This document shows, piece by piece, positions 1 to 35,808 of a stretch of 53,238 nt of DNA (positions are counted from its first letter, which is position 1; each line of letters opens with the position of its first letter). Source of the DNA: Candidatus Delongbacteria bacterium (GTDB lineage: Bacteria > UBA4055); assembly GCA_016937995.1 (NCBI GenBank), contig JAFGVM010000001.1, positions 1-53,238 on the forward strand, written 5' to 3'. The translations under genes and the position numbers were made by a program. The notes beneath the pieces are model-generated. The model was not told where the DNA came from, did not search any database, and saw nothing but the letters and a program-made list of their open reading frames with translations.

Positions 1-803
1 ACTACTATCTCAAATTGCGAGAATACGCTTTGTTTTTCGACATTGCAGAGGGCTTCGAACCCGAAACGGTTCTCTTTCATTCCAAGTAATTCGCTGCGGA
101 TATCATCGGTCAGTATGCCTGTATCGCCTTTGATGATCTTGTAGTTTTCAAGCAGGATGTCTTTCTGGTCGGAGAAAACGATCTTTCCGTTGTTGATGAA
201 AGTAATGTAATCGGCTATTTTTTCAAGATCGGAAGTGATGTGCGTCGAGAATAGGATAGATTTGTTCTCGTCCTGAATTTCTTCGCGGAGTATGTCCATG
301 AGCTTGTCGCGGAATACGGGGTCAAGTCCGGATGTCGGTTCGTCAAGGATCAGAAGTTCGGCGTTGTGCGAGAGAGCTACGGCAAGCGAGAATTTCATTT
401 TTGTTCCTTTTGATAGATCTCTGATTTTCTTATTCGGGAGGAGCTCAAATATCCCGCAGTATTCGTCGAATTTTTCATCATCCCACCTGCTGTAGAACGG
501 TGCGATTATCTCTTTCATTTTCTTTACGGTCAGATGCTCATAAAAATAGCTTTCTTCATATACGAAACCGATCCTGTCCTTTATCGCCACTTCATCTATC
601 GAATTATCCATTCCGAATATTTTGATGTCGCCGGAATCTTTCTTCAATAAATTCATTATAAGCCTGATAGTGGTCGTTTTTCCTGCCCCGTTAGGCCCGA
701 TGAAGCCCATCACAAACCCTTTATCGAGGTTGAAGTTTATATTATCCAGCTTAAAACCGTCAAACTCTTTCGAAACATTCTTTATATCTAATATTTTATT
801 CAT
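1..803 (-). CDS. ABC transporter ATP-binding protein (YtrB-like), runs off the left edge
   Basis: Not in the ORF track; translated by hand from ATG at 803: MNKILDIKNVSKEFDGFKLDNINFNLDKGFVMGFIGPNGAGKTTTIR (Walker A), later LLILDEPTSGLDP (Walker B). AGAGGAG RBS at 811-817. Lies downstream of the GntR gene. Confidence 0.93.
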   Translation of the reverse strand, partial: MNKILDIKNVSKEFDGFKLDNINFNLDKGFVMGFIGPNGAGKTTTIRLIMNLLKKDSGDIKIFGMDNSIDEVAIKDRIGFVYEESYFYEHLTVKKMKEIIAPFYSRWDDEKFDEYCGIFELLPNKKIRDLSKGTKMKFSLAVALSHNAELLILDEPTSGLDPVFRDKLMDILREEIQDENKSILFSTHITSDLEKIADYITFINNGKIVFSDQKDILLENYKIIKGDTGILTDDIRSELLGMKENRFGFEALCNVEKQSVFSQFEIV

Positions 804-816
804 TTTATTTCTCCTC

Positions 817-853
817 TGTCATTGCGAGGATTTTATTAAATCCGTGGCAATCT
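817..853. repeat. TGTCAT-type palindromic repeat (TGTCATTGCGAGG...CCGTGGCAATCT)
   Basis: Near-identical reverse-complement copy at 19453-19488. Confidence 0.85.
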
Positions 854-867
854 TGTTCTTTTTTTTT

Positions 868-897
868 TGTCATCCTCGTGCTCCGACACGGGGATCC
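868..897. repeat. TGTCAT-type palindromic repeat (TGTCATCCTCGTGCTCCGACACGGGGATCC)
   Basis: Near-identical copy at 10871-10900; internal hairpin. Confidence 0.85.
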
Positions 898-921
898 ATT
901 TTTATGTTTGTTAATCCGTTT

Positions 922-949
922 CGGGGTCGACCGTTGGGCGACCCCTACG
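922..949 (-). repeat. GTAG-type REP-like hairpin
   Basis: Minus strand reads GTAGGGGTCGCCCAACGGTCGACCCCG: GTAG tetramer plus imperfect GC-rich stem. Confidence 0.75.
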
Positions 950-950
950 A

Positions 951-981
951 ACTATCAACTGTCAACTTTCAACTGTCAACT
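951..981 (-). repeat. Heptamer tandem repeat (TTGANAG)x4
   Basis: Minus strand directly after the GntR stop: TTGACAG TTGAAAG TTGACAG TTGATAG TTCGTAG. Confidence 0.8.
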
Positions 982-1348
982 ACTCATACAACGCATCCAA
1001 CATCTCCCTTAATTCTTTCTTCTTCAATCCAAGCATTCTTGCTTCATCAACTGCTTCGATTAATTTATTTTCAATTATTTTCAATTTCTGTTCTTTGATA
1101 AATTCTTTATTCTGATGTGCTACAAAAGTTCCCTTTCCACCGACAGTTTCCAAAAAACCTTCTCTCTCCAGATCTTCATAACTTCTCTTGGTCGTTATAA
1201 CACTGATCCTAAGTTCTTTAGCAAGATTTCTTATAGATGGAAGAGCATCTCCGGCTTTTAGTTCACCGGTGATCATCAAACCTCTAAACTGATCAGAGAT
1301 CTGCTTATAGATAGGATCGGGAGATGAATTTTTAATTATAATTTTCAT
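980..1348 (-). CDS. GntR family transcriptional regulator, YtrA subfamily
   Basis: PIYKQI...LKAGDALPSIRNLAKELRISVITTKRSYEDLEREG...GKGTFV wHTH with a short C-terminus; 122 aa, upstream of an ABC ATPase. Confidence 0.95.
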   Translation of the reverse strand: MKIIIKNSSPDPIYKQISDQFRGLMITGELKAGDALPSIRNLAKELRISVITTKRSYEDLEREGFLETVGGKGTFVAHQNKEFIKEQKLKIIENKLIEAVDEARMLGLKKKELREMLDALYE

Positions 1349-1379
1349 GGTTTTCGACTCCGTGCATTTTGTGTTTGCC

Positions 1380-1427
1380 GTATATATGCGATATATACAA
1401 TTTAACGAATAATTTTTACCGTGTCAA
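1380..1427 (-). promoter_or_regulatory. Sigma70-type promoter with adjacent palindromic GntR/YtrA operator
   Basis: TTGACA (1427-1422)-N17-TAAATT (1404-1399), immediately followed by the inverted repeat GTATATAT-GCG-ATATATAC (1380-1398). Confidence 0.75.
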
Positions 1428-1443
1428 GTGTTTTTTATGACAT

Positions 1444-1467
1444 AAAAAAGCCCCATCAAAGATGGGG
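1444..1467 (-). terminator. Intrinsic terminator after the propeller lipoprotein gene
   Basis: Minus strand: CCCCATC-TTT-GATGGGG-C-TTTTTT. Confidence 0.75.
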
Positions 1468-1490
1468 AATTATGTGATTTAATTAAATTC

Positions 1491-1518
1491 GTAGGGAACG
1501 CAGATCTGCGTTCCGTAC
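1491..1518 (+). repeat. GTAG-type REP-like palindrome
   Basis: GTAGGGAACGCAGATCTGCGTTCCGTAC. Confidence 0.75.
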
Positions 1519-1532
1519 AATGTCAATGGAAT

Positions 1533-2690
1533 TTAATAATCATAAAATTTAATATTCCTACCTTTCTCATCGTCAAATTCATCCGCATTAAAATAAATCA
1601 GCTTATCACCTATGAATCTAATCCTGTAATACAATTTTGATCCCGTTCCATCATAGTAGACTAGATCTTTAAATTGAATAGAATTCTGATATATTCCATT
1701 TTTGAATATATCAACATACATGCCTGAAAGATTTTCAGAATTTCTCTCATTAGTTGCAAGTACCCATAATCTGTTATATTTGTCTACAAATATTTCGTTT
1801 ATAGCTCTCTTTTTTATATTACCAAATTTTTCTTTCATGTTAATACCATTCAATTCACTCATTCTATCCATTTCGATATCTTTGTAGAAGTAACTTCTGA
1901 AATCTTTTTTAATTTGATACTTCTTATCTCCTGTATTAGAGTCGTAAACATCTATCTTGTATTCACTATCACTTATCCAAGAGATATACAGATTAGTTTC
2001 ATTCCCACATATAAATGGGTACATTTGAGAACTGGCTGCTACACCATGTTCGATAATTTTATAAAATCTGTCAACAACTTTGATCTGATTAAAATCATTA
2101 TCCATTAGTATATTTTCTATTGTTAGCTCATCACTGTCTTTATCCAGAGTAAGATGTTCCCATTTTGTAGCTATAATTCTATGTTCTGAAAGTTTATGAA
2201 TTTCAGTTACAATGAAACCTAGGTTGAATGATTCAATGTATTCTCCACTAAGATCAAAAATATTAACTTTATCACTATTACTAAAAAAGGCATAGATCTT
2301 ATTATTGATGATTATTGTTCCTGAATATCCCTCATTTTCACCGGGTCCTTGCCCAGTTGGTGAAAATGATCTTATGAATTTAAAATTACTATTATACAAA
2401 GTTAATCTTCCTTTAGGATTATAACCCTGAACTAAAATATTATCGCCTGGCAGTTTATGAACTGTTGACATCCAAAAGAACCCTAGAGAATCTTCTGCGC
2501 TACGATTACTGTTAATCTGACCGGTATATTTCAGATTAACCTTTAGTTCCGGATCATCAGAAATCTTTTTGTTGATGATCACTTTACCGTCTTCAGTTTC
2601 AACAACGGTATAATTCGTTTTCTTTTCACATGCGTTAAAGATCAACAACATTACAACAATGCCAAACAAAATCACTTTTCTCATTCTCAT
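1533..2690 (-). CDS. 6-bladed beta-propeller (NHL-like) lipoprotein
   Basis: Lipobox-like FNAC, GQGPGE motif, IFVDKYNRLWV, YVDIFKNGIY; paralog of 20496-21659. Confidence 0.8.
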   Translation of the reverse strand: MRMRKVILFGIVVMLLIFNACEKKTNYTVVETEDGKVIINKKISDDPELKVNLKYTGQINSNRSAEDSLGFFWMSTVHKLPGDNILVQGYNPKGRLTLYNSNFKFIRSFSPTGQGPGENEGYSGTIIINNKIYAFFSNSDKVNIFDLSGEYIESFNLGFIVTEIHKLSEHRIIATKWEHLTLDKDSDELTIENILMDNDFNQIKVVDRFYKIIEHGVAASSQMYPFICGNETNLYISWISDSEYKIDVYDSNTGDKKYQIKKDFRSYFYKDIEMDRMSELNGINMKEKFGNIKKRAINEIFVDKYNRLWVLATNERNSENLSGMYVDIFKNGIYQNSIQFKDLVYYDGTGSKLYYRIRFIGDKLIYFNADEFDDEKGRNIKFYDY

Positions 2691-2840
2691 CCTCTCTCAA
2701 TTTGATATTTTAAATTTTTTACCTATCCGAAAGTATGAAAACTAGTTTATTTTCAGAAATTATACAATTTAGTAGTGATGAAATGCTTAAAATATGGTGT
2801 GAATGGAATAAGTATATTGCAAAATGTGTTTTTTTTCTCT

Positions 2841-2869
2841 TTGACTCTTTTTACGATTTTAACTACATT
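2841..2869 (+). promoter_or_regulatory. Sigma70-type promoter
   Basis: TTGACT-N17-TACATT upstream of GGAGGA RBS and ATG at 2904. Confidence 0.6.
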
Positions 2870-2903
2870 AAATCATCAAAATAAATATTACAACGGAGGA
2901 TTT

Positions 2904-4334
2904 ATGCTCAAAAGGTTAACAGTATTACTTTTATTTGTAGTTACAACTACAGTCTTTTTCTCTTGTACTGAAGATGATTCAACAGATCCGATAATTTATG
3001 ATGAGTTTACCGTTCAGACTGACTGGTCCGGTGGAGGTACTCAGGTAGATATGCTGGATTCGAATAAATTTAATGTTTCAGCAGGTATTGACTTCACATC
3101 CACACCAGGAGAAATTACTATTTCAGGTGATTATTTTGTAACTAACGATGCTCAGACTTACAACGGTAAATTATATGTCTGTGTCACCGGATACGGTACA
3201 TTTGAATATGATCCAACATCAGATGTATGGAAACTTAGTCTTGCAGGTCACTACTGGAGATTCTCTTATGTATTTGATGGAAAACTTTACACTTTGTACT
3301 CAGGTGTTGAAATAAAAACTTACGATGGAACAACAAACGATTATGGTCTAGGTCCAAACGGTTGGGCCGTTTTCAATAATGATGGACTACCTGCATACGG
3401 TGAAGTTGATCCTTACCTCAATATTTTTGATTTTACAGAGTTCAATTCAGAACTATATGCATGTGGTGGTCTCTGGAATGGTACAACAAACCAGTCTGCT
3501 GGAGGTCAGGTATATAAATTTAATGGTACTGCATGGGAACAGGTTGGTGCAACTACTGAGAACTCATCTAATGCTATTGTAGCTTACGATGGAGAACTTT
3601 ATTGGGGAACTCACTGGAGTGGTGATCTTTTTAAACTTGTAGGTGGAGTTTGGACATACACAGGTCATTCTTTCGGGATGTCAGTTACTGATCTTGTTGT
3701 ATGTAATGATAAATTATATGTTGCTTCTTGGAACACATCTTATGTAACAGGTTATGTTGATGAATTTGATGGTACGAACTGGGTAAGAAGATATAACGGT
3801 GAGGCTGTAACAGAGCTTACTGTACATAACAATATGATAACATGGGGTACTAATCCCGGAGGTAAGATATTTCAATTATCAAATGATCCCGCTCCTTGGG
3901 TTGTGAATCTTTACGATCTAGGTATTACCTGCATAAGTGGACTAGTTTCAGTTAATGGTGATCTTTATAACGGTTGTGGTTATCAAACAGCTCCGAATGT
4001 AAGAGATAATTTTATTTATAAGAACGGAGTTCAGGAAAAGAAATTAGAATGCTGTATGTTAGTATCATCAGGTTATTCTTCTATTGAGAACACTTGGGGT
4101 AACATTGTATGGAATTGTGACGAACCAGCAGGCACAGGTGTGGAAGTATGGGTTCAGGGAAAAGACTCTGCTGCTGCATGGCCAATGTACACTGAATATA
4201 ACTGGACTCAAATGGTAAATGATACTCCTATTGAACTTGATGGACAGGATATGAGATATAAAGTTTATCTATGGTCGACTGAAGACGGTGTAACACCAAC
4301 TTTTGAAGATATTTCACTAAAGGTAGAGCAATAA
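2904..4334 (+). CDS. Lipoprotein with beta-propeller repeats and a C-terminal beta-sandwich
   Basis: Start moved from 2775 to 2904 (GGAGGA RBS, promoter, signal peptide MLKRL...FFSC). Repeated [FY][ND]GxLY and [FY][DN]GTxW blade motifs. Confidence 0.8.
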   Translation: MLKRLTVLLLFVVTTTVFFSCTEDDSTDPIIYDEFTVQTDWSGGGTQVDMLDSNKFNVSAGIDFTSTPGEITISGDYFVTNDAQTYNGKLYVCVTGYGTFEYDPTSDVWKLSLAGHYWRFSYVFDGKLYTLYSGVEIKTYDGTTNDYGLGPNGWAVFNNDGLPAYGEVDPYLNIFDFTEFNSELYACGGLWNGTTNQSAGGQVYKFNGTAWEQVGATTENSSNAIVAYDGELYWGTHWSGDLFKLVGGVWTYTGHSFGMSVTDLVVCNDKLYVASWNTSYVTGYVDEFDGTNWVRRYNGEAVTELTVHNNMITWGTNPGGKIFQLSNDPAPWVVNLYDLGITCISGLVSVNGDLYNGCGYQTAPNVRDNFIYKNGVQEKKLECCMLVSSGYSSIENTWGNIVWNCDEPAGTGVEVWVQGKDSAAAWPMYTEYNWTQMVNDTPIELDGQDMRYKVYLWSTEDGVTPTFEDISLKVEQ

Positions 4335-4347
4335 ATGTATAAAAAAC

Positions 4348-4372
4348 GGGGACGGAAAAATCCGTCCCCTAC
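4348..4372 (-). repeat. GTAG-type REP-like hairpin between convergent genes, probably also a terminator
   Basis: Minus strand GTAGGGGACGGATTTTTCCGTCCCC, flanked by A- and T-tracts. Confidence 0.75.
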
Positions 4373-4376
4373 ATTT

Positions 4377-5144
4377 TTAATTGTCAAATATTTTAAACAG
4401 TTTTCTCGTATTTTCTAACGTGACCTTAGAAACTTCCTCAATGCTGATATTTTTTAAATCAGCGATCTTCTGAGCGATATATCTCAATTTTGAAGGATCA
4501 TTCCTCTTACCCCGAAAAGGAACAGGGGTTAAAAACGGAGAGTCTGTTTCAAGCAGTAAACGATCCAGAGGCAAAGCTTTTATAACTTCTTCTCTGTCAT
4601 TTTTTTTATAAGTGATATTCCCGGTGAAAGAAATATAAAATCCTTTATCTATCAATTCCAGGGCCGTATCTGCAGATCCTGCGTAACAATGAAAAACACC
4701 TGTATAATTATCTGAAACTTCATTTATAACTTTCATAGTCTCTATTTCTGCATCTCTGCTATGAATGATTACAGGAAAATTTTCTTCGAGAGATAATTCA
4801 AGCTGCTTTATAAAATATTTTCTCTGTGTTTCGAAAGGGACTTTATCCCAGTAAAGATCCAATCCTGTTTCGCCCAATGCAACAACCTTATCATGCTTCA
4901 AAAGCTCTCTGATCTCTTTTACAGCATCATCAGAATTACTTTTTAGATCTGTAGGGTGCAAACCAACTGCAGCATAGATCCTATCATATTTTTCTGCAAG
5001 CCTGATCGATTGATATGAAGTTTCAATGTCAACACCAACGTTGATAATTCCATCGATCTCAGTTGAAAGAAGCTCATTAATAAGTTTGTCCCTGTCCTCA
5101 TCATAATGTTCAAAATATAAATGTGCATGAGACTCGAAGAACAA
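4377..5144 (-). CDS. tatD: TatD family deoxyribonuclease
   Basis: ESHAH, VGLHP, GETGLD, IIHSR, GVFHC, LLETDSPFL motifs; TTG start. Confidence 0.95.
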   Translation of the reverse strand: MFFESHAHLYFEHYDEDRDKLINELLSTEIDGIINVGVDIETSYQSIRLAEKYDRIYAAVGLHPTDLKSNSDDAVKEIRELLKHDKVVALGETGLDLYWDKVPFETQRKYFIKQLELSLEENFPVIIHSRDAEIETMKVINEVSDNYTGVFHCYAGSADTALELIDKGFYISFTGNITYKKNDREEVIKALPLDRLLLETDSPFLTPVPFRGKRNDPSKLRYIAQKIADLKNISIEEVSKVTLENTRKLFKIFDN

Positions 5145-5155
5145 AACTTACTCCA

Positions 5156-5830
5156 CTATAAAAATAATATTCTAATGAAAAATTCTGCTACAGGAAATAT
5201 AGCCATTCCGAAAATAGAGAATTTAAATACATTACCTATCACTATCAAACCGATAAGGATACCTATACCGTATCTGCTCACAGCTTCAAACTTATCAGCC
5301 TGCTCATGTGTTAAAAATCCCATAAGTATCTTAGAACCATCCAAAGGTGGTATCGGGAATAGATTGAATATCATCAGGACAGTATTTATAAGAACAGCAT
5401 AGAAAAAGAAATTCTCCAGATAGGTTTGATGCTCCGGTGAAAAAATTATATATGGATCTATTCTGTCCATTCCTACGATAAGTAATATCTTGTATAGTAT
5501 TATTGATACAATGATAAGAAGAAGATTAGAAAGCGGTCCCGCAGCAGCAGTGATAGCCATATCTCTTTTCATATTTTTAAAATTAAAAGGATTCACAGGA
5601 ACGGGCTTTGCCCCCCCGAACATTATTGACCAGCCTGAAAGAAGACCTAACATAAGTGGCAGCATGACTGTCATCATCGGATCAATATGAGGCATTGGGT
5701 TTAAAGTTAATCTGCCCATTCTCTTGGCAGTAGGATCACCAAGGTAAAATGCTGTTACTCCGTGAGATACTTCATGAAATACCACTGAGAACAGCAGTAC
5801 TATGATCATTATAATTATTCCAGGACCCAT
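5156..5830 (-). CDS. Site-2 protease, peptidase M50 family
   Basis: HEVSH, GDPTAKRMGRLTLNP, AGPLSN, FNLFPIPPLDG. Confidence 0.95.
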   Translation of the reverse strand: MGPGIIIMIIVLLFSVVFHEVSHGVTAFYLGDPTAKRMGRLTLNPMPHIDPMMTVMLPLMLGLLSGWSIMFGGAKPVPVNPFNFKNMKRDMAITAAAGPLSNLLLIIVSIILYKILLIVGMDRIDPYIIFSPEHQTYLENFFFYAVLINTVLMIFNLFPIPPLDGSKILMGFLTHEQADKFEAVSRYGIGILIGLIVIGNVFKFSIFGMAIFPVAEFFIRILFL

Positions 5831-5837
5831 AATTTAT

Positions 5838-6557
5838 CTAAAACTTATAACTTAACATTAACTTATGATTAACATGACCTGTATCGTCAAGAGACTGAAT
5901 TATCTCTGTCTTTAACGCAGGTGCTCTGTATGAAGCATTTATTGCACTTACTAGATGATTTAGTGCAATTGCCCCGATAGTGTAAAAGAACCTTGTATTG
6001 CCGTCTTCTGAGGATATTCTTATGTCATCGTAATCTTTTCTAACCGACGTTGATGACCAGTCCCAGAAATCTGAAGGATTATCATATCTGTTATTAAAAT
6101 CCCTGTCAATATTTCTCTGGGCATTATAATCTTCTACGTTATCGTAATTTGCAATGTCCACCCAGTATCTCTCATCTTTTCCCGATGGATCAACACCTGC
6201 CTTCAACGCGGCAAGGTCCTTATAATCATCCTCTCTTATAGAAGAGTAATAACTAAATCCGGCTGCAACAGCTATTAAACTCACTTCTGTGATAAAAAAA
6301 GTCGCAGCCTCTTTCTTTCTTCCCAGCTTATACTCCCCCCATCCCGGAACAATAAATGAACGGATGAAGTATTTAAAACTGTCAGTTTTTTTCTTTTTAT
6401 CTTTATCTCCCTTACCGTACCTGTCCCTAACGAATGACATCTCTTTTTCAAAATCATTTAGATTATTGAAAGGAACTATATCCTCGGCAACAAGGACCCG
6501 ACAGAATAAAAAGATCATTATCAGAGAAATAATATGTCCGTATCTTAAATTCATCAA
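5838..6557 (-). CDS. Exported/membrane protein, DUF5683-like
   Basis: Signal peptide; RSFIVPGWGEY followed by a hydrophobic helix; LNHLVSAINA; C-terminal F. Confidence 0.65.
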   Translation of the reverse strand: MMNLRYGHIISLIMIFLFCRVLVAEDIVPFNNLNDFEKEMSFVRDRYGKGDKDKKKKTDSFKYFIRSFIVPGWGEYKLGRKKEAATFFITEVSLIAVAAGFSYYSSIREDDYKDLAALKAGVDPSGKDERYWVDIANYDNVEDYNAQRNIDRDFNNRYDNPSDFWDWSSTSVRKDYDDIRISSEDGNTRFFYTIGAIALNHLVSAINASYRAPALKTEIIQSLDDTGHVNHKLMLSYKF

Positions 6558-6559
6558 AT

Positions 6560-7696
6560 TTACCAGTTGACCGAGTAGGTCAGTTTATAATTATCTAATC
6601 CCAGGACATCAGCCTTATCATTGTTTTCGATCCTGAGCTTTGTTTCAATAGAATATTTGGATTTGATAACATATGCGGCATCAAAAGCTGAAGCAACATG
6701 ATTTAACAAGGTCACCATAAGAAAGTTCTGCCCCATTTCATAAGCTATATTAGCTTCATTTCTGAGATCCTCATAGAAATCTACATGTTCCGCTGAATTA
6801 TGATCATTAAAGTTAAATGCACTTGACTCATTCAACTTTAACTTAGGCCTAAGTACTGCTGTTGTGTCAGTTCCGTTTATTGCATATTCCGTAACGTATA
6901 TTATCTCTCCCTCAGCATCTCTTTCATAACCCTCATAATCGTCCCATCCACCGGCGAACTGATGATACTTACCTATCATTTCATAGTACTGCTGAGTTTT
7001 TCCGCTCGGCAGGTTATGTGTAAATTCTTTTAATGCAATGTCACCTTCAGCAAAGGTCATTACATCCGCCAAAGGCAGACCCAGATAGTATAATGAAGTA
7101 TCTGTCATAGACATTTCCATCATGTCCAGAACACAAAATTCTGTATCGTTATCCCAGTCAATATCATCATCCCAGTACCAGTTATCTCTATCTTTAAAAT
7201 AATCAAGGCTCCAGATATCCACTGCATTAACAGCAGGATTGGCATTTAAATATACCAGAAAATTCTGGGACATACCCATTAAACCGCCATAATAACGGTC
7301 TTCACTAAAACTGGAATTGGCATAATCTTCAAACTCTGCAGTTTTATCATCACCGTCAGAATCATATACATACCATAAAGAAACCGCAACTGCCTCAATA
7401 CCAAAAAATATACCGCTTCTGATATAGTCCTTTGCATAGAATTCACCTGCTCCGGGCAGTAATATCGAAAGACCTGAAGCGATCATAGGGCTCATTCCGT
7501 CCTTATATTCCGCTTTCTTTTTGCTTTTTATCCTTGGAGTTGATGCTTCAGTTTCAACAGTCTCAGCTGTATCATCATTTTGAGCCAACATTATACCTGA
7601 TATACCATTATAATTGACCGCCTGGCCATACATAGATACTAAAAATCCAAGTATCATCACTATAATTGATATTCTCTTATTTTTCATTGTTCTCAC
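6560..7696 (-). CDS. Exported/membrane protein, DUF5683-like (paralog of 5838-6557)
   Basis: SILLPGAGEFY followed by a hydrophobic helix; QQYYEMIGKY; LNHVASAFDA; C-terminal W. Confidence 0.65.
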   Translation of the reverse strand: MRTMKNKRISIIVMILGFLVSMYGQAVNYNGISGIMLAQNDDTAETVETEASTPRIKSKKKAEYKDGMSPMIASGLSILLPGAGEFYAKDYIRSGIFFGIEAVAVSLWYVYDSDGDDKTAEFEDYANSSFSEDRYYGGLMGMSQNFLVYLNANPAVNAVDIWSLDYFKDRDNWYWDDDIDWDNDTEFCVLDMMEMSMTDTSLYYLGLPLADVMTFAEGDIALKEFTHNLPSGKTQQYYEMIGKYHQFAGGWDDYEGYERDAEGEIIYVTEYAINGTDTTAVLRPKLKLNESSAFNFNDHNSAEHVDFYEDLRNEANIAYEMGQNFLMVTLLNHVASAFDAAYVIKSKYSIETKLRIENNDKADVLGLDNYKLTYSVNW

Positions 7697-7809
7697 CCGT
7701 ATGCTTAATTAAATATTATCCTTTTTGTCTTCGCTGAATTAGTTCATTATATCTTGTAATATTTTTTATTCTGTCATGCTGATCCCGATTTCGAATTATC
7801 AATTGCTTC

Positions 7810-10800
7810 CTAAAAATCAATAAAATCGAACAGTACTGTCAAATAACTTCTTACCTCATGTCCGTATGTAACATCCTCATTCACAAATTTATCAAGTCCA
7901 TATGCCACTGTATAATCAACTGAAAGAGGGAATCCGTAGAATATGGTACCGAACATCCTTATGTTCAATCCTACACTTTTTTTCAGGTCCTTCATTGAAT
8001 CCTTTATTGCCTCATCTGTCCATCCTGTTCCCGCTCCAAATAGTATTCCTGCATACAGATTTTTAAAATTATATATTCCTAATAGTTTATCTGTTCTTTT
8101 AACAATCGGAAATCTGATCATTGTGGATGCATAAGCTGTTTTAGTTCCACCGAGACTATAGAAAGAATACCCCTGTAATCCTGTCAGACCACCTATGTAA
8201 TTATAATAGAACGAATCTATATTCTCATCATCAAGATAAGAAAATTTCATTTTGAGTGTTAATCCTGATTCCAGAGGAAGCTTAAAATACTCTTTTATAT
8301 CAAGGTCGTACTGATTATAATTGTATTTTCTGTAATCTTCCTGCAAAGTACCGTAATCTGAGTTCAGAGAGAAACCTGTAATAAAATCAGTAATATGCCT
8401 TGAATATGTAAAGGTAACATCTCTTCCATAAGTTCTGTTGATATAGTGGTTGAACCTGAATTTATTGCTGGCAAGATTTAATTTAACATTATAACTCTTC
8501 TCTTTGAAGTAAGTGTACTTCAAAACAAAATCACCGTAATCAGCAGCTGCATCACTCCTTACATAAGTAAAGAATGCTTCCATATCAAGTTCGCCGAGAG
8601 GATATTTGAAAATTTTCGGTTTTAATGTAAAAGGTACCTTTATTCCAAAATCAAGCTCCATGATATCGTAAGTAAAGTCAATATCATTTATCTCATACTC
8701 AGGAATATCAGTTCCATCTTCAAGACTGTCAACATGAACAATTACCCTGTCATTGATAAAAGTATTATCATCTGTTCTGACCATATTGAATGCCATACCG
8801 TATATAGTAGGCAACAGGAATTTGAATTCAGTCATTGCGAACAGGTCGGAATCACCGTTCATCCCTCTGTTGTAACCTCCGAAAAGTGATACTTTGTCAA
8901 GGTAGTCACTTAGGAAGAAATATATTCCGGGTTTAAAATTATTATTATCAAAAGCCAGCCTTGGCACTATCATTATGCTCTGAAAATCATTCATATATCT
9001 TCTTGAATCTTTCAGGTAGTCCAAAGTTGTGATCGAAAGAAAATTATTATCATAAACCTCGTAATCTCTGTATTCACATTTGGATGTTTCGATCGGTTCA
9101 ATATCTTTGATCTCATAGATATTTGTTCTGATACCGTTGTAATTAACATAGACAAGTGTATCCTGCTGCAGTTCAGGATAGAATGCACCACCTCTTACAT
9201 TAGTTACTGTCTCATCAAGTCCCGAGGCAATATCTCTCCTGTATATATTGTAAATACCTGTTCTGTCACTTGCATAGTAGACATACTTTTCATCAGGAGA
9301 ATACACAGGATCTCTGTCATCATATTTTGTGGAGATCAGAGTAGTGACATTACCCAGTGTGTCCACTTCCACAATATCCTTTCCATATTCTATTATCGAT
9401 CTGTCAATAAGTATCTTTGAACCGTCTTTACTCCATTTTGGAAGAAAATACTGAGTACCGTCATCTTTTTTAGTAAGATTCAATGCAACATCTTTCTCAA
9501 TATCATATATGTACAGGTTCCTTGTACCGTCATGGGTTGCCACAAAAGCTATCTTTTTACCATCAGGAGACACTTCAGGGTTCGCTGCTCTCATACCGTG
9601 AGTGATCTGCTCCTCTTCATCTTCTTTGATATCATAATGATAAATGTCCAGATAATTGTTTCCGTAAATGCTGTGTTTATCCGATCTTGAGAAATATATT
9701 GATCTGCTGTCAGGTGTCCATGAGTATGAAGAGAACATCACAGCAGGTATTTTAAATTTAATAGAATCTGTCTTTAGGTCTTTTATGTGCAGATCCCTTT
9801 TGTAAAAAGAGGGCTCTCCGCCTATCTTAGTTGATAAGAAAGCAAGATATTTTCCGTCAGGTGAAAATTTAGGATTGGAATTCACAAATGCAGAATCAGA
9901 GATATCCTTACCCTGAACCAGATTATTTTCCACATTTTTGATCTCCTGTCTGTACTTTTCTCTAAGATCATTTATCCACTCTGAGTAAAGCTCATCACCT
10001 CTTTTACCCGTAACTCTTTTTATAGCCTCCTCGAATGAAAAAGAAAATGCTTTCCCCATCTCCTCGGAGATCTTATAAGGGACATCCTTGCCATATTTTT
10101 CAAAGATATATTTTACGAAAGCAAAACCGGTGTTATAGATACTCTCAGCTTCGTGAGAACTTCTGTTGTAGAAGTCTGTCAACTGGGAATATTTAAGCTC
10201 TTTTCCTTCGAGAATCCTTTCTCTGAGGAGCATGTCTCTGTTAGCATCCCAGAAATCGTAATGTAATGTATCCGGATCCTGATTCTGAGCAACACCTTCA
10301 GCGAACCATGGAGGTATTATATTCATCGGAATATTTGCGGAAGATAATATATTCGGGAACCCTGTCAGCACATCTTCTCTTTTCTCATCTTCGTAACCTG
10401 TCCATTGCAAATACAGTCCGGGAAACATTTTCGATGCTTTCCTTGGAACCTGAAGCTGGATCATATGTGAAAATTCATGAGCGAATAGATTGGTATACCA
10501 GAAATGGTCACCTCTGAGTATCGTATCGAATGCTGGTGCCCAGAGTGAAATTTTATCATTGTAATAGTAAGCACCGCCGTTCGCCATATCATCGTAATCG
10601 TTTATTATCACATGGATCTTGTAGTCGGGATAGAAATTATAAAGTTTTGTTATCGTACCGTAAATACTTTCACCTACAGATGCAAATCTGACCGCGCTTT
10701 TCTCCGTTCCCTGATGATAATGAAATATGAAATGCTCAGTGTCAAAGGTTCGCCATTGCAACTCAGGATGATTGTGCATATCAAGTATCTGCGCACTAAG

Positions 10801-10854
10801 CATAGTAAATACTGATGATATTAGAAGAATGTATGTGTAAATTGTTTTTTTCAT
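7810..10854 (-). CDS. Gluzincin-like metallopeptidase / TolB-like PD40 propeller / Omp85-like barrel hybrid outer-membrane protein
   Basis: Signal peptide; HEFSH plus PWFAEGVA; SPDGK/TPDSR/SKDGS/SPDEK repeats; amphipathic beta-strand C-terminal third with GGLTGLQGY; ends in F. Confidence 0.8.
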   Translation of the reverse strand: MKKTIYTYILLISSVFTMLSAQILDMHNHPELQWRTFDTEHFIFHYHQGTEKSAVRFASVGESIYGTITKLYNFYPDYKIHVIINDYDDMANGGAYYYNDKISLWAPAFDTILRGDHFWYTNLFAHEFSHMIQLQVPRKASKMFPGLYLQWTGYEDEKREDVLTGFPNILSSANIPMNIIPPWFAEGVAQNQDPDTLHYDFWDANRDMLLRERILEGKELKYSQLTDFYNRSSHEAESIYNTGFAFVKYIFEKYGKDVPYKISEEMGKAFSFSFEEAIKRVTGKRGDELYSEWINDLREKYRQEIKNVENNLVQGKDISDSAFVNSNPKFSPDGKYLAFLSTKIGGEPSFYKRDLHIKDLKTDSIKFKIPAVMFSSYSWTPDSRSIYFSRSDKHSIYGNNYLDIYHYDIKEDEEEQITHGMRAANPEVSPDGKKIAFVATHDGTRNLYIYDIEKDVALNLTKKDDGTQYFLPKWSKDGSKILIDRSIIEYGKDIVEVDTLGNVTTLISTKYDDRDPVYSPDEKYVYYASDRTGIYNIYRRDIASGLDETVTNVRGGAFYPELQQDTLVYVNYNGIRTNIYEIKDIEPIETSKCEYRDYEVYDNNFLSITTLDYLKDSRRYMNDFQSIMIVPRLAFDNNNFKPGIYFFLSDYLDKVSLFGGYNRGMNGDSDLFAMTEFKFLLPTIYGMAFNMVRTDDNTFINDRVIVHVDSLEDGTDIPEYEINDIDFTYDIMELDFGIKVPFTLKPKIFKYPLGELDMEAFFTYVRSDAAADYGDFVLKYTYFKEKSYNVKLNLASNKFRFNHYINRTYGRDVTFTYSRHITDFITGFSLNSDYGTLQEDYRKYNYNQYDLDIKEYFKLPLESGLTLKMKFSYLDDENIDSFYYNYIGGLTGLQGYSFYSLGGTKTAYASTMIRFPIVKRTDKLLGIYNFKNLYAGILFGAGTGWTDEAIKDSMKDLKKSVGLNIRMFGTIFYGFPLSVDYTVAYGLDKFVNEDVTYGHEVRSYLTVLFDFIDF

Positions 10855-10870
10855 TTATTTATTTCTATGT

Positions 10871-10972
10871 TGTCATCCCCGTGCTCAGACACGGGGATCT
10901 TTTTTTTTAATAGGCGAATGTTGATTCGCCCCTACTTCATCATTGGATGTTCCGTGTTGAATATTGATATTC
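10871..10972 (-). repeat. Composite intergenic repeat cassette (heptamer-like run, GTAG REP, ATGACA palindrome)
   Basis: Minus strand: AATATTC AACACGG AACATCC AATGATG, then GTAGGGGCGAATCAACATTCGCC (10935-10913), then AGATCCCCGTGTCTGAGCACGGGGATGACA (10900-10871). Confidence 0.8.
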
Positions 10973-10973
10973 A

Positions 10974-13937: not shown

Positions 13938-13953
13938 TAACTAGCCGGATAAA

Positions 13954-15036
13954 TTAAAAACCAATATTAAGAGAAAATCTCATTGTGTCTGTCAGAGGAT
14001 GTCCTTCACCGGCATCCAGGTAAGAAAAATCAAAAATATATGAATCATATCTTAAACTACAACCGTAAGTGGAAGCGCTTATTTCACCCATATCATCATT
14101 CCAGAATCCCAATCTGAGACCTATCATTTTATTGTACCAGTATTCTGCTCCAAGTCCCCAGATAATGTCCTTTACACCATCCTCATCAGTCCATGAAGTA
14201 AAGATAGCTTTGTAAATCGGATCTGTCTGGTTCCATTCATCATCATCCTCAATATCACCGTCACCATTAAGATCTTCACCTTTTTTTACCAGAAGTTTAT
14301 TCATGTCACCTGTAAGAACCAATGAATTATAGTCGTCATAGAACATATAGTATGCAAATCCCAGTTTCATATTCGTAGGTAAAGGATCAGCCTGTTCGTA
14401 GTCTATATAAGATACTTTTGGTCCCATGTTCGATATCGTTAATCCCCAGTCAACATCGTAATCTGTCTGATATAACAATCCAAGGTCCATAGCAACACTG
14501 TGACCTGTACCTGAACCCTTTTCATTTCCGGCACCGTAGTCTGATAAGTGTGAATATATGAATTTTGTATTGATACCTATGTAAAGATCATCTGATATGT
14601 CTGTTCCGTAAGAAAGTGTTGCTGCAGTCTCATAGGTCTTGAAAGTACCGAGTTGAGTTCCTGATTCATCAGTTCTGATCTGCTCACCAAGGTAAAAGTA
14701 AATGATGTGACCTCCGATAGTTCCTAAACCGGGTATCTCCTGTTTGTAAGCTATGAAATCATAGTAAAGATCATCAAAACCGAATCCGGGTAACCAGCTT
14801 GCATGCATCATTGTGACCTCTCTTCCACCCTGACGTCCAAGACCGGCCGGATTCCACCATGATGCTGTGGCATCATCTGCAATAGCTACAAATGAGTCAC
14901 CCATACCAGTAGGCCTTGCTCCCGGAGAAATTGTTAAAAAGATAACTCCAGCCTCTGAAGGTCGGGCAAAAACAGAGGTTGAAATAATTATCATCAATAG
15001 AGAGATAGTTAATTTTAGTATGTTCACGGATTTCAT
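13954..15036 (-). CDS. porV: Type IX secretion system outer-membrane protein PorV (PorV/PorQ family)
   Basis: FLTISPGARPTGMGD...DDATASWWNPAGL; KFIYSHL; DPLPTNMKLG; GAEYWY; HPLTDTMRFSL. Confidence 0.88.
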   Translation of the reverse strand: MKSVNILKLTISLLMIIISTSVFARPSEAGVIFLTISPGARPTGMGDSFVAIADDATASWWNPAGLGRQGGREVTMMHASWLPGFGFDDLYYDFIAYKQEIPGLGTIGGHIIYFYLGEQIRTDESGTQLGTFKTYETAATLSYGTDISDDLYIGINTKFIYSHLSDYGAGNEKGSGTGHSVAMDLGLLYQTDYDVDWGLTISNMGPKVSYIDYEQADPLPTNMKLGFAYYMFYDDYNSLVLTGDMNKLLVKKGEDLNGDGDIEDDDEWNQTDPIYKAIFTSWTDEDGVKDIIWGLGAEYWYNKMIGLRLGFWNDDMGEISASTYGCSLRYDSYIFDFSYLDAGEGHPLTDTMRFSLNIGF

Positions 15037-15120
15037 TTTTGGTCCTGTTATAATTCTAATTTACTATTATCGTATCTTGTTAAACTCATTCATCATAACT
15101 TTGTTCAAAAGCTTAGACAA

Positions 15121-15993: not shown

Positions 15994-16023
15994 TGTATAC
16001 CTTCTGTTAACTAATTTATCGTT

Positions 16024-16557: not shown

Positions 16558-16570
16558 CTCCTTTTAAAAG

Positions 16571-16665
16571 AGGGGACGAATTTTAGGCGTCCCCTTCGGT
16601 TCTTTATTCATAATTCAAGTTACGGACGAGTAGTGTCTGACACTTACCACTTACCACTGTCCACT
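16571..16665 (-). repeat. Composite intergenic repeats (AGTGGNN heptamers, AGTGTCAGACACT palindrome, degenerate REP)
   Basis: Minus strand after the stop: AGTGGAC AGTGGTA AGTGGTA AGTGTCAGACACT ... GAAGGGGACGCCTAAAATTCGTCCCCT. Confidence 0.7.
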
Positions 16666-17472
16666 TTACTTAACTCTTACCTTTGTCATTACTACGTCTT
16701 TAACAGGCTTGTCACCCTTTCCTTTTTCTACAGCTTCAATTTTAAGAGCAACATCCATTCCTTCGATCACTTTTCCGAAAACAGTATGCTTACCGTTCAA
16801 CCATGGTGTTCCATCTTTTTTAGTTACTATGAAAAACTGGGATCCATTAGTTCCAGGTCCTGAATTTGCCATTGCAATAACTCCGTAATCTACGGTTGCT
16901 TTCAATTTGCCTTTCGTAGCAAATTTTCCTTTAAAACCTGTTTTCTCAATATACCATTCGATAGGATGTTCCATCATCGGTTTTCCGCTTCTTGCCTTAT
17001 TACATTCTTCAATTATTTTTGAAATTTCCTTATCTCTCGTAGTCTCATTATTGGACTGTAAATAAGGTATCACCATTTGTTGAAATACATCTCCAGCCAT
17101 TGTTTCATCTGTAATTTTTCCTGACTTTATCTCTTTTCCTTCGTCAAAACATTCATCCTCAAATTTATATCCTGGATTTCCTGTACCTGTACCCAGCGGA
17201 CATCCACCCTGGATCATGAAATCACTTATTACTCTGTGAAAGATCAGTCCATCGTAAAAAGGTTTTTTTACTTTAGCTTTTGAAATTGGATCTGTCCATT
17301 CCTTAGTTCCATTTGCCAGACCGATGAAGTTCGCAACTGTCTTGGGAGCAATATCTGGCCAAAGCTCGATCTTGATTGTGCCCATTGTTGTTTCCATTGT
17401 AACTATTGGATTAGCAGCATAAAGCTGTATTATGCCTGCAACGAATAATAATGCGATCAGTAATTTTTTCAT
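16666..17472 (-). CDS. Cyclophilin-type PPIase, Sec-exported, with ~75-aa insertion
   Basis: Signal peptide ending LYA; cyclophilin motifs; insertion between FEDEC and LKATVDYG. Confidence 0.93.
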   Translation of the reverse strand: MKKLLIALLFVAGIIQLYAANPIVTMETTMGTIKIELWPDIAPKTVANFIGLANGTKEWTDPISKAKVKKPFYDGLIFHRVISDFMIQGGCPLGTGTGNPGYKFEDECFDEGKEIKSGKITDETMAGDVFQQMVIPYLQSNNETTRDKEISKIIEECNKARSGKPMMEHPIEWYIEKTGFKGKFATKGKLKATVDYGVIAMANSGPGTNGSQFFIVTKKDGTPWLNGKHTVFGKVIEGMDVALKIEAVEKGKGDKPVKDVVMTKVRVK

Positions 17473-17496
17473 TTCATATCCCTTTAAATTATTTTA

Positions 17497-19379: not shown

Positions 19380-19488
19380 GAAGTTAGAAGTTAGAAGTTA
19401 GAGGTCAGAGGCGGGGGAAGGTTTCCACACCTTCCCGGAATCTTTAAAAAATAGATTGCCACGGATTTAAAAAATCCTCGCAATGACA
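19380..19488 (+). repeat. Composite intergenic repeat cassette
   Basis: (GAAGTTA)x3 GAGGTCA, then GCGGGGGAAGGTTTCCACACCTTCCC hairpin, then AGATTGCCACGGATTTAAAAAATCCTCGCAATGACA (19453-19488). Confidence 0.8.
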
Positions 19489-31928: not shown

Positions 31929-32014
31929 CGTTGGGGAAGGCTTCTACGCCTTCCCGCTTTGGGTTATTTGAATTGAAAACCATAAGCGGGAGACCGTGGA
32001 AGGTCTCCCCTACG
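31929..32014. repeat. Inverted REP doublet (REPIN-like)
   Basis: CGTTGGGGAAGGCTTCTACGCCTTCCCGCTT on the plus strand faces CGTAGGGGAGACCTTCCACGGTCTCCCGCTT on the minus strand. Confidence 0.8.
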
Positions 32015-33329: not shown

Positions 33330-33421
33330 TGTCATTCTCGGACTCGATCCGGGAATCCAGGAGTATTAAAATTTGGATATGTTTTTATTAAAAATGGGGA
33401 CGATAAGAATTCGTCCCCTAC
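33330..33421 (-). repeat. GTAG REP plus ATGACA-ending palindrome between convergent genes
   Basis: Minus strand: GTAGGGGACGAATTCTTATCGTCCCC (33421-33396), then CTGGATTCCCGGATCGAGTCCGAGAATGACA (33360-33330). Confidence 0.8.
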
Positions 33422-35783: not shown

Positions 35784-35808
35784 AGGGCGTATTTTGATAC
35801 GCCCCTAC
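35784..35808 (-). repeat. GTAG-type REP-like hairpin
   Basis: Minus strand GTAGGGGCGTATCAAAATACGCCCT. Confidence 0.8.

What the first reader, a model, noticed from the sequence alone, without database searches (positions are those of the whole stretch)
817..981. Stereotyped, directional intergenic cassette: heptamers, then GTAG-REP, then ...ATGACA palindrome, recurring across the window
Seen: three unrelated repeat classes stack in the same order and polarity at separate loci. Complete sets lie at 981-817 (minus), 10972-10871 (minus) and 19380-19488 (plus). Partial sets lie at 33421-33330 (REP plus ATGACA palindrome) and 16665-16571 (heptamers plus degenerate REP), with a decayed trace at 7809-7726. 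In the complete sets the cassette follows the direction of transcription and ATGACA ends about 13-21 nt before the next ATG. The module sequences differ between loci, so these are not copies of one element; only the arrangement is conserved. Established: GTAG REPs are substrates of RAYT/TnpA(REP) HUH nucleases. Inference: these are ordered landing pads left by several small nuclease- or cargo-bearing elements acting in trans (RAYT; GIY-YIG and four-helix-bundle genes are candidates for the other two classes), or a composite mRNA-processing signal. I know of no description of this ordered arrangement.
Basis: partly seen in the sequence, partly recalled or inferred. Interest (0 to 1): 0.8.

Follow-up and report, generated by a model that had tools for sequence, protein, structure and literature searches.

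The report
Intergenic pile-up of three selfish repeats
A 165-base spacer between two genes is a pile-up of three kinds of small selfish DNA repeats, each tied to its own helper gene elsewhere in the genome, and their seemingly fixed order mostly reflects where each kind prefers to sit.

Summary
The three repeat classes are real and abundant in this genome (2.75 Mb; nearest named relatives are Candidatus Delongbacteria). I counted 112 intergenic heptamer arrays, 102 GTAG hairpins and 105 hairpins ending in ATGACA.

Each class has a gene-carrying version:
- Inverted heptamer arrays flank all 5 free-standing four-helix-bundle (PF05635/S23p) genes.
- TGTCAT/ATGACA hairpins flank both small GIY-YIG genes.
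- Inverted GTAG-type hairpins flank the single Y1 (IS200-like) transposase gene.

The ATGACA hairpins are the published CGTC/TGTC-tagged REPs, also called Ssn-related motifs. GTAG REPs are also known.

The order heptamer > GTAG > ATGACA holds for 29 of 32 co-oriented pairs. Each class's own positional habit already predicts 26-27 of 32. Only 6 of 1213 spacers carry all three classes, and only 2 of those show strict order and polarity.

The same gene junction is empty in 8 of 9 relatives, so this is accreted mobile DNA, not a required signal.

Two points seem new. Heptamer arrays flank four-helix-bundle genes across phyla (65 of 77 loci against 0 of 63 controls). GTAG hairpins sit exactly on the 3' edge of heptamer arrays (22 of 102 against 2% of controls).

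The parts
950..981 (-). Heptamer array, 4.6 copies of AGTTGAY. Its first unit overlaps the stop codon TAG (980-982) of the gntR-family gene.
   Evidence: Read. Tandem Repeats Finder and module table.
923..948 (-). GTAG-tagged REP hairpin (GTAG + GGGGTCG..CGACCCC), 1 nt after the heptamer array.
   Evidence: It belongs to a family of 102 intergenic copies.
868..895 (-). TGTC-tagged REP, i.e. Ssn-related motif, class C1: AT-stem with a C.A mismatch, loop, stem-AT, then GACA.
   Evidence: The same class flanks the GIY-YIG gene at G000:C64.
817..851 (-). TGTC-tagged REP, i.e. Ssn-related motif, class C2: ATTGC CAC [variable stem-loop] TC GCAAT GACA.
   Evidence: The same class flanks the GIY-YIG gene at G000:C56.
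804..816 (-). Native spacer with an SD-like GAGGAG before the ABC-ATPase start codon (ATG 803-801). It is the only part of the spacer shared with the empty junction of relative G001.
980..1348 (-). GntR-family regulator gene upstream of the mosaic.
   Evidence: Pfam GntR.
3..803 (-). ABC transporter ATPase gene downstream of the mosaic. It runs off the window end.
   Evidence: Pfam ABC_tran.
10871..10972 (-). Second locus: a degenerate heptamer-like flank (10936-10972), a GTAG REP (10913-10935) and a C1 motif (10871-10898).
   Evidence: Three species of the same genus carry three different REPs at this site.
19380..19488 (+). Third locus, in a divergent spacer: heptamers GAAGTTA x3 and more (19380-19411), an untagged GC hairpin (19412-19438, GGCG in place of GTAG) and a C2 motif (19455-19488).
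33330..33421 (-). GTAG REP (33396-33421) plus a C1 motif (33330-33356).
16572..16666 (-). Heptamer array AGTGGTA-type (16641-16666), starting at the stop codon, plus an untagged GC hairpin (16572-16594).
4348..4372 (-). Solo GTAG REP in a convergent spacer.
31988..32013 (-). Solo GTAG REP in a divergent spacer.
35785..35808 (-). Solo GTAG REP lying against the direction of both flanking + strand genes.

Best explanation
The segment is a mosaic of independently acquired small selfish repeats from three families. They have piled up in the only tolerated slot of a formerly about 18-nt operon junction, between the stop codon and the ribosome-binding region.

The three families:
1. Heptamer arrays are the arms of S23p/four-helix-bundle elements of the 23S-rRNA-intervening-sequence type. 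A full element is array, gene, then the complementary array, and its arms can pair in RNA.
2. GTAG hairpins are REPs of the kind handled as single-stranded DNA by a Y1 HUH transposase.
3. Hairpins ending in ATGACA are TGTC-tagged REPs, also called Ssn-related motifs. They are bound and cut as single-stranded DNA by small GIY-YIG Ssn nucleases. There are two subclasses here, each matching one of the genome's two Ssn-like genes.

Why the order looks fixed: each family has its own anchoring habit. Heptamers start at the stop codon. GTAG hairpins sit on the 3' edge of heptamers or within about 14 nt of the stop. Ssn motifs sit near the next start codon, after an A-tract.

Shown: the families, their gene-bearing versions, the statistics and the empty sites in relatives.
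Inferred: the enzymatic roles in this organism, that the four-helix-bundle protein acts on heptamers, and that spread acts in trans.
For: Gene-bearing versions of each class:
- All 5 free-standing PF05635 genes are flanked by inverted heptamer arrays.
- Both small GIY-YIG genes are flanked by TGTCAT/ATGACA hairpins.
- The single Y1_Tnp gene is flanked by inverted GTAG-type hairpins.

Across phyla:
- In most of the 25 GIY-YIG loci whose flanks I printed (of 80 fetched), (T/C)GTCAT-hairpin-ATCC lies upstream and GGAT-hairpin-ATGAC(A) downstream. This was judged by eye, not counted.
- 65 of 77 four-helix-bundle loci have period 6-8 arrays on both sides, against 0 of 63 control loci.

Literature:
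- CGTC/TGTC-tagged REPs with stems beginning AT and a CCA tail (PMC3733652, passages read).
- SsnA cuts single-stranded DNA beside its hairpin, and 71% of ssnA regions carry the motif (PMC11893778, sections 6-8, 10 and 12 read).
- The Coxiella IVS has tandem heptamers 5' of its S23p ORF, with the RNase III cut at the first repeat (PMC4990558, passages read).

Stems covary. In 30 distinct C1 copies, pairs 3/21, 4/20, 8/16 and 9/15 switch between A-T and G-C types, and the C.A mismatch is kept in 26 of 30.

Solo positions in tandem spacers:
- Heptamers start at a median of -1 nt from the stop (n=33).
- GTAG hairpins start at a median of 14 nt (n=39).
- Ssn motifs lie at a median of 67 nt from the stop and 31 nt from the next start (n=35).
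- These habits predict 26-27 of 32 ordered pairs; 29 were observed.

Empty and filled sites:
- The junction is empty in 8 of 9 relatives with both genes on one contig.
- It is empty in 9 of 10 named Delongbacteria loci; the two sets probably overlap.

Co-distribution in the 16 genomes searched in the family (window genome included):
- C1 and C2 motifs: G000 36 and 29; G002 30 and 15; G001 2 and 1; G007 1 and 1; none in the other 12.
- Ssn-like genes occur only in G000, G002 and G007.
Against: - Both Ssn-like genes here look damaged at the N-terminus: a frameshift in C64 and a TAA at codon 3 in C56. The trans-acting nuclease may no longer work.
- The Y1 transposase passes NCBI's IS200 model (77 bits, cut-off 55) but not the REP-associated model (30.5 bits, cut-off 80). 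Its flanking hairpins differ from the abundant REPs.
- Arrays (112) far outnumber four-helix-bundle genes (5), and only 4 array pairs within 2 kb are complementary. No result shows that the protein touches heptamers.
- Independent insertion does not explain two things: the roughly 3-fold excess of co-occurrence, and the exact abutment of GTAG on array ends.
- Gene calls are rough longest-ORF calls, so distances to start codons are approximate.
Confidence: 0.7

Rival explanations
1. Nested targeting. The families are not independent: earlier residents create the landing site for later ones. In particular the GTAG hairpin docks at, or generates, the 3' edge of a heptamer array. The order would then be a true hierarchy of insertion rather than separate positional habits.
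For: - Period-7 identity is 0.43 in the 28 nt 5' of GTAG, against about 0.30 for other periods, for the 3' side and for controls.
- 22 of 102 REPs have a strong upstream array, against 2% of 3000 control 28-mers.
- No co-oriented GTAG hairpin precedes a heptamer array in a tandem spacer: 10 pairs run array-then-GTAG, 0 the reverse.
- The last heptamer often runs in phase into GTAG, as in ..AAGTCAGAAGTAGGGG...
- Co-occurrence of classes is about 3 times the independent expectation.
- Relative G002 has a different array and a different REP in the same order at the same junction.
Against: - 80 of 102 REPs have no strong upstream array.
- Heptamer arrays beside four-helix-bundle genes carry no GTAG hairpin.
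- Permissive or long spacers alone could raise co-occurrence.
- Independent habits already predict most of the order.
Confidence: 0.25
2. The stack is a composite cis-acting RNA signal selected for function in the operon transcript, for example processing, insulation, 3' stabilisation of the upstream message and 5' protection of the downstream one.
For: - Modules are largely co-directional with transcription.
- They are nearly absent from divergent spacers: 4, 7 and 5 modules in 213 such spacers.
- ATGACA hairpins often end 8-30 nt before the start codon (28 of 62).
- 21 of 102 REPs are followed by TTTT, against 11% of controls.
- Hairpin stems covary.
Against: - The orthologous junction is empty in 8 of 9 relatives. 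In several the stop and start overlap (TAATG), which means direct coupling without any signal.
- The motifs are almost confined to 2 of the 16 family genomes searched.
- Modules mostly occur singly.
- No Rfam family matches.
- SsnA acts on single-stranded DNA, not RNA (PMC11893778, section 8).
Confidence: 0.1
3. One composite mobile cassette (heptamers + REP + ATGACA hairpin) moves as a unit.
For: Three loci in one window share the same order and polarity.
Against: - Module sequences differ at every locus.
- Spacers between modules are unrelated.
- Only 2 of 1213 spacers have the strict arrangement.
- At one junction, species of the same genus differ in single modules only.
Confidence: 0.03

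Closest known systems
CGTC/TGTC-tagged REPs (Di Nocera et al. 2013, PMC3733652), also called NTS or Ssn-related motifs with SsnA GIY-YIG nucleases (Chenal et al. 2025, PMC11893778)
   Same: - A TGTC tag, stems that begin with AT, loops of 3-5 nt, and a CCA-like tail on the tagged strand.
- Frequent inverted dimers (11 TGTCAT..ATGACA pairs).
- Small single-domain GIY-YIG genes flanked on both sides by the motif.
   Different: - Two subclasses coexist here. One has a conserved C.A (T.G) mismatch. The other has an internal loop and a freely varying inner stem.
- Both nuclease genes look damaged.
- The host is a Delongbacteria-like genome.
- cd10448 membership could not be tested.
GTAG REPs with RAYT / REPIN systems (recalled: Nunvar 2010, Bertels and Rainey 2011; summarised in PMC3733652)
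   Same: - A GTAG tag followed by a GC-rich hairpin; 102 intergenic copies.
- Downstream-of-gene location; rare in divergent spacers.
- One Y1 transposase gene flanked by inverted tagged hairpins.
   Different: - Mostly singletons: 3 inverted pairs and 3 direct pairs.
- The transposase scores as IS200, not as a REP-associated transposase.
- 22% of copies abut a heptamer array.
23S rRNA intervening sequences that encode S23p (Coxiella IVS, PMC4990558)
   Same: - A PF05635/TIGR02436 ORF between complementary arms.
- Tandem heptamers on the 5' arm.
- The closest solved relative is PDB 2RLD, with five identical chains. S23p is reported to be a homopentamer.
   Different: - These lie between protein-coding genes, not in 23S rRNA.
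- The arms are whole heptamer arrays, typically 4-5 copies.
- About 100 arrays have no gene.
Intergenic heptamer arrays: TAACTGA repeats (MacGregor 2015, PMC4679880); cyanobacterial STRR (recalled: Mazel 1990)
   Same: - Tandem heptamers in spacers, overlapping upstream stop codons or sitting just before start codons.
- Patchy distribution across phyla.
   Different: - Many unit types occur here (38 classes).
- The link to four-helix-bundle genes is not made in that paper: 'S23' and 'intervening sequence' each occur 0 times in it.
BIMEs of E. coli and NIMEs of Neisseria (recalled; NIME-type clusters are mentioned in PMC3733652)
   Same: Several small repeat families stacked in one transcribed spacer.
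   Different: - The three families here have three different gene partners.
- There is no fixed motif grammar beyond each family's own positional habit.

Membership tests
GTAG REP / RAYT | GTAG tetranucleotide followed by a 20-40 nt imperfect palindrome, in many extragenic copies | tested here: met
   115 GTAG+hairpin sites, of which 102 are intergenic.
GTAG REP / RAYT | A REP-associated Y1 transposase gene flanked by inverted REPs | tested here: inconclusive
   One PF01797 gene (99 bits) is flanked by inverted GTAG/TTAG-tagged short hairpins. NCBIfam REP_Tyr_transpos gives 30.5 bits against a cut-off of 80, while the IS200 model gives 77 against 55.
GTAG REP / RAYT | Cleavage of REP single-stranded DNA by the transposase | not testable with these tools
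   This needs biochemistry.
CGTC/TGTC-tagged REP = Ssn-related motif | Tag CGTC or TGTC, stem of 8-9 bp beginning AT, loop of 4-5 nt, CCA tail | tested here: met
   compared with PMC3733652 section 6.
CGTC/TGTC-tagged REP = Ssn-related motif | A single-domain GIY-YIG gene of about 90 aa flanked on both sides by the motif | tested here: met
   Both small GIY-YIG genes qualify. Pfam GIY-YIG scores are 49.5 and 46.7 bits.
CGTC/TGTC-tagged REP = Ssn-related motif | The protein belongs to CDD cd10448 | not testable with these tools
   No CDD library is on hand. NCBIfam gave no match and there is no PDB relative.
CGTC/TGTC-tagged REP = Ssn-related motif | Strand-specific single-stranded DNA cleavage next to the hairpin | not testable with these tools
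   This needs biochemistry. Both local genes look N-terminally damaged.
S23p / 23S rRNA IVS element | ORF of PF05635/TIGR02436 | tested here: met
   6 matches in the genome. The C51 copy scores 116 bits on TIGR02436 and 105 bits on PF05635.
S23p / 23S rRNA IVS element | Complementary arms around the ORF | tested here: met
   5 of 5 free-standing copies have inverted heptamer arrays. Duplex energy lies 3.4-5.4 sd below shuffles for 3 copies and about 0.9 sd below for 2.
S23p / 23S rRNA IVS element | Insertion in a 23S rRNA helix | tested here: not met
   All 5 copies lie between protein-coding ORFs.
S23p / 23S rRNA IVS element | Excision by RNase III | not testable with these tools
   No RNA data were available.
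BIME/NIME-type mosaic | Members of several repeat families clustered in one spacer | tested here: met
   40 of 1213 spacers hold two or three classes.
BIME/NIME-type mosaic | A fixed architecture of motifs | tested here: inconclusive
   29 of 32 co-oriented pairs are ordered, but 26-27 are expected from solo habits. Many pairs are in other orientations.

The most novel reading that the evidence does not exclude
Tandem heptamer arrays, the long-unexplained STRR- or TAACTGA-type repeats, would be the conserved inverted arms of a cross-phylum family of selfish elements. These elements carry a pentameric S23p/four-helix-bundle gene and colonise spacers in mRNA as well as rRNA. The protein would recognise about five heptamers. 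GTAG REPs would use the 3' edge of these arrays as a specific docking site, giving a real insertion hierarchy among three unrelated nucleic-acid parasites.
Probability: 0.3. Interest if true: 0.75.

Novelty: new variant of a known kind. Interest (0 to 1): 0.5.

Why it matters
- It turns an apparent 'regulatory cassette' into a readable record of three selfish-DNA families, each with its partner gene. That helps annotate spacers in poorly known phyla.
- It extends the Ssn/SRM system described in 2025 to a new lineage, with two motif-nuclease pairs in one genome.
- It gives a concrete, testable origin for intergenic heptamer arrays: they are the arms of S23p/four-helix-bundle elements. The support is a 65 of 77 against 0 of 63 contrast across phyla.
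- The library searches I ran found this link stated only for the single Coxiella rRNA IVS.
- The exact docking of GTAG REPs on array edges is unexplained. It may reveal the target choice of a Y1 transposase.

Tried and rejected
- Rfam at gathering threshold: 0 matches in the window.
- Sequencing runs: no RNA holder listed.
- Laying contigs of 4 DNA runs on window 1-20000 showed no filled/empty variant. One contig of a second sample bridges 556-1360 with no differences.
- Replication versus transcription as the cause of the orientation bias could not be separated. Discordant cases number 4 vs 3 (GTAG), 6 vs 5 (ATGACA) and 3 vs 7 (heptamers).
- REPs as intrinsic terminators: only 21 of 102 have TTTT within 10 nt, against 11% of controls.
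- Heptamers as universal stop-codon traps: only 53 of 110 arrays have stops in all three frames on the G-rich strand.
- Junction 3 (19380-19488) could not be compared because relatives have different upstream neighbours.
I replaced it with counts and with the 5 local elements.
- Heptamer unit classes shared between this genome and foreign four-helix-bundle flanks: 11 of 38 against 52. The naive hypergeometric p of 2e-7 is inflated by the AT-rich composition.
- I first assumed a Flavobacteriia host. Named relatives show Candidatus Delongbacteria.

Full report
**What is at the locus.**
- Read on the minus strand, the GntR-family gene (980-1348; Pfam GntR) ends with TAG at 982-980.
- That stop codon is already part of a heptamer array, AGTTGAC AGTTGAA AGTTGAC AGTTGAT AGTT (981-950).
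- One base later comes a GTAG-tagged GC-rich hairpin (948-923).
- Two different hairpins follow, each closing on AT and followed by GACA (895-868 and 851-817).
- After 13 nt with an SD-like GAGGAG comes the ATG of an ABC-ATPase gene (803).
The 'heptamers' at 10972-10936 are degenerate. The middle hairpin at 19412-19438 lacks the GTAG tag. 7809-7726 is too decayed to call.
- Rfam finds nothing in the window.

**Host.**
- The window is the whole of contig C28 of a 2.75 Mb, 99-contig, 34.6% G+C genome.
- The nearest named relatives of its ABC ATPase (85-92% identity) are Candidatus Delongbacteria MAGs.

**Genome-wide census.**
- I used a rough longest-ORF gene map: 2215 ORFs covering 91% of the genome.
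- 152 period-7 arrays were found, 112 of them intergenic after merging.
- 115 GTAG+hairpin sites were found, 102 intergenic.
- 179 of 1962 ATGACA sites are preceded by a hairpin closing on AT; 105 of these are intergenic.
- Several contigs end in long heptamer arrays.
- The ATGACA hairpins fall into classes:
  - C1 is AT NN C CGNN loop NNCG A NN AT + GACA. Pairs 3/21, 4/20, 8/16 and 9/15 covary, and a C.A mismatch is kept in 26 of 30 distinct copies.
  - C2 is ATTGC CAC [free stem-loop] TC GCAAT + GACA, with 23 distinct copies.

**Each class has a gene-carrying form.**
- The genome has six PF05635 (23S_rRNA_IVP, four-helix-bundle) matches.
  - Five are free-standing, and several contain stop codons. 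All five sit between a G-rich heptamer array and its complement, with a different unit at each copy.
  - The arms can pair: 3.4-5.4 sd below shuffles for three copies and about 0.9 sd below for two.
  - The sixth match is the Avd of a diversity-generating retroelement and has no arrays.
- There are two small GIY-YIG genes.
  - The C64 copy lies between a reverse C1 hairpin (TGTCAT..) and a forward one (..ATGACA).
  - The C56 copy lies among C2-type hairpins.
- The single Y1_Tnp gene is flanked by inverted GTAG/TTAG-tagged short hairpins.

**What is already known.**
- The ATGACA hairpins match the CGTC-tagged REPs of Di Nocera et al. 2013. In that description the tag often changes to TGTC, stems begin AT, loops are 4-5 nt, the tail is CCA, the repeats are mostly dimers, they occur in five phyla, and there is 'no dedicated transposase' (PMC3733652, passages).
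- Chenal et al. 2025 tied exactly these motifs (NTS/SRM) to SsnA, a 94-aa GIY-YIG enzyme.
  - It binds the hairpin as single-stranded DNA and cuts just upstream.
  - It acts on one strand only and not on RNA.
  - 71% of ssnA regions carry the motif and 42% carry it on both sides (PMC11893778, sections 6-8, 10, 12).
- My own scan agrees.
  - The local protein family has more than 545 relatives at 50-63% identity across many phyla.
  - In most of the 25 loci whose flanks I printed, the gene sits between (T/C)GTCAT-hairpin-ATCC and GGAT-hairpin-ATGAC(A), with lineage-specific stems. This was judged by eye.
- GTAG REPs and their Y1 transposases are textbook. Here the transposase passes NCBI's IS200 model but not the REP-associated one, so that membership stays open.

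**Heptamers and four-helix-bundle genes.**
- I searched with the intact 117-aa C51 protein. It scores 116 bits on TIGR02436. Its closest solved relative is PDB 2RLD, which has five identical chains.
- The search returned 80 loci from Bacteroidota, Bacillota, Fibrobacterota, Cloacimonadota, Planctomycetota, Ignavibacteria, Verrucomicrobiota and others.
- Of 77 loci with full flanks, 65 have period 6-8 arrays (nearly all period 7) on both sides. 48 have an exact inverted match of at least 12 nt between the two flanks.
- Among 63 GIY-YIG loci used as controls, none has arrays on both sides and 4 have one on either side.
- Arrays have a median of 4.7 copies (interquartile range 4.1-5.3); 71 of 149 lie between 4.25 and 5.25 copies.
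- In print I found this link only for one case.
  - The Coxiella 23S rRNA IVS has three tandem GACAGAT repeats 5' of its S23p ORF, with the RNase III cut at the first repeat. S23p is cited there as a homopentamer (PMC4990558, passages).
  - MacGregor's study of TAACTGA arrays in Beggiatoaceae, Cyanobacteria and Bacteroidetes does not mention S23 or intervening sequences (PMC4679880, passages).
  - Searches gave nothing further. Subscription papers and supplements were not seen.

**Is the order real?**
- In tandem spacers the modules follow the gene direction: GTAG 65 vs 11, ATGACA 55 vs 25, heptamers (G-rich strand) 48 vs 30.
- Divergent spacers are almost empty: 4, 7 and 5 modules in 213 spacers. 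The 139 convergent spacers hold 17, 6 and 14.
- Among co-oriented pairs of different type in tandem spacers, heptamer-before-GTAG is 10 to 0, GTAG-before-ATGACA is 13 to 3, and heptamer-before-ATGACA is 6 to 0. That is 29 of 32 (p=2.6e-6).
- Spacers holding only one class show the same habits.
  - G-rich heptamers start at a median of -1 nt from the stop.
  - GTAG hairpins start at a median of 14 nt.
  - ATGACA hairpins lie at a median of 67 nt from the stop and 31 nt from the next start.
  - Drawing positions independently from these solo distributions gives 26-27 ordered pairs of 32.
- Other arrangements are common. Adjacent pairs include TGTCAT..ATGACA dimers (11), inverted array pairs (8), ATGACA tandems (7), GTAG with a reversed ATGACA hairpin (4) and ATGACA before GTAG (3).
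- Only 6 of 1213 spacers hold all three classes, and 2 of those have strict order and polarity.

**What independence does not explain.**
- Classes share spacers about three times more often than expected. For example, heptamers with GTAG occur together 17 times against 6 expected.
- The 28 nt 5' of GTAG have period-7 identity 0.43. Other periods, the 3' side, ATGACA flanks and 3000 control 28-mers all give about 0.30.
- 22 of 102 REPs have a strong array ending exactly at GTAG, often in phase with it, against 2% of controls.

**Comparative evidence.**
- At the gntR-ABC junction, 8 of 9 relatives with both genes on one contig have no insert.
  - G001, of the same genus, reads stop, 18 nt with the same GAGGAG, then ATG.
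  - Four other genera have overlapping or near-overlapping stop and start.
  - 9 of 10 named Delongbacteria loci agree; this set probably overlaps the first.
- G002 (same genus) has, at the same place and in the same order, a different heptamer unit (TAGGGAT..), a different GTAG REP, no C1, and the same C2.
- At the second junction the three genomes of the genus each have a different REP. That REP is followed by C1 in this genome, C2 in G002 and nothing in G001.
- Among the 16 genomes searched in the family (window genome included):
  - C1 and C2 motifs number 36 and 29 here, 30 and 15 in G002, 2 and 1 in G001, 1 and 1 in G007, and none in the other 12.
  - Ssn-like genes occur only in G000, G002 and G007.
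  - PF05635 genes occur only in G000, G002, G004 and G007.
  - These genomes are kin and not independent, and some are incomplete.

**Conclusion.**
- The locus is a mosaic of accreted selfish repeats from three families, two of them already described together with their enzymes.
- It is neither a conserved composite signal nor one element.
- The apparent grammar is mostly each family's own anchoring habit.
- The specific docking of GTAG hairpins on heptamer-array edges is left unexplained.
- The cross-phylum pairing of heptamer arrays with four-helix-bundle genes deserves a study of its own.

**Caveats.**
- Gene starts are approximate.
- Both local Ssn-like genes look damaged.
- No RNA data exist for this organism.
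- No protein-nucleic acid contact was tested.

Noticed in passing
G000:C40:9578-9832 (minus) and the sequence downstream of it: An Avd-like PF05635 gene is followed by a reading frame that looks like a reverse transcriptase, so this is probably a diversity-generating retroelement. It has no heptamer arrays, unlike the five free-standing four-helix-bundle genes.
   Followed up: partly
G000:C64:33277-33560 (L008 1488-1782) and G000:C56:21419-21691 (L009 1474-1776): Both small Ssn-like GIY-YIG genes appear N-terminally damaged. The C64 copy has a frame change between the likely ATG and the conserved core. The C56 copy has a TAA at the third codon, ahead of the GIY strand.
   Followed up: partly
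G000 contig ends: C8 51635-51721, C12 1-82, C15 10452-10527, C31 1-87: Contigs break inside long perfect heptamer arrays of 11-12 or more copies. Array lengths and numbers are therefore underestimated in this assembly.
   Followed up: no
Genome-wide, 10 nt 5' of the ATGACA-type hairpins: 38 of 105 hairpins are preceded by an AAAA run, against about 11% of controls. At junction 2 the relative that lacks the hairpin already has ..AAAAGATT.. there. This hints at an A-tract + GAT target site.
   Followed up: partly
Window 10936-10972 and G000:C35 near 18063: The same roughly 40-nt flank (..caatattcaacacggaa[c/t]atccaatgatgaa) precedes the same REP (GTAGGGGCGAATCAACATTCGCC) at two loci. Some REPs therefore travel with a longer 5' segment.
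   Followed up: no
Eleven TGTCAT-hairpin..hairpin-ATGACA dimers, for example G000:C66:26784-26851: The dimers usually pair two different stem variants (ATCC.. with ATAT..). Their 10-25 nt spacers often read cca..ttttat(g)g, which resembles the left junction of the gene-bearing C64 element. This fits a gene-deleted, MITE-like origin.
   Followed up: partly
Window 3-1348: The GntR and ABC-ATPase pair resembles the PmtR/PmtA export system in NCBIfam, but below the curated cut-offs (137 bits against 200; 327 against 350).
   Followed up: no
Upstream of the four-helix-bundle genes at G000:C73, C84 and C99: A shared motif CAYTATTTGACC lies upstream of three of the genes. It may be their own promoter.
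   Followed up: no
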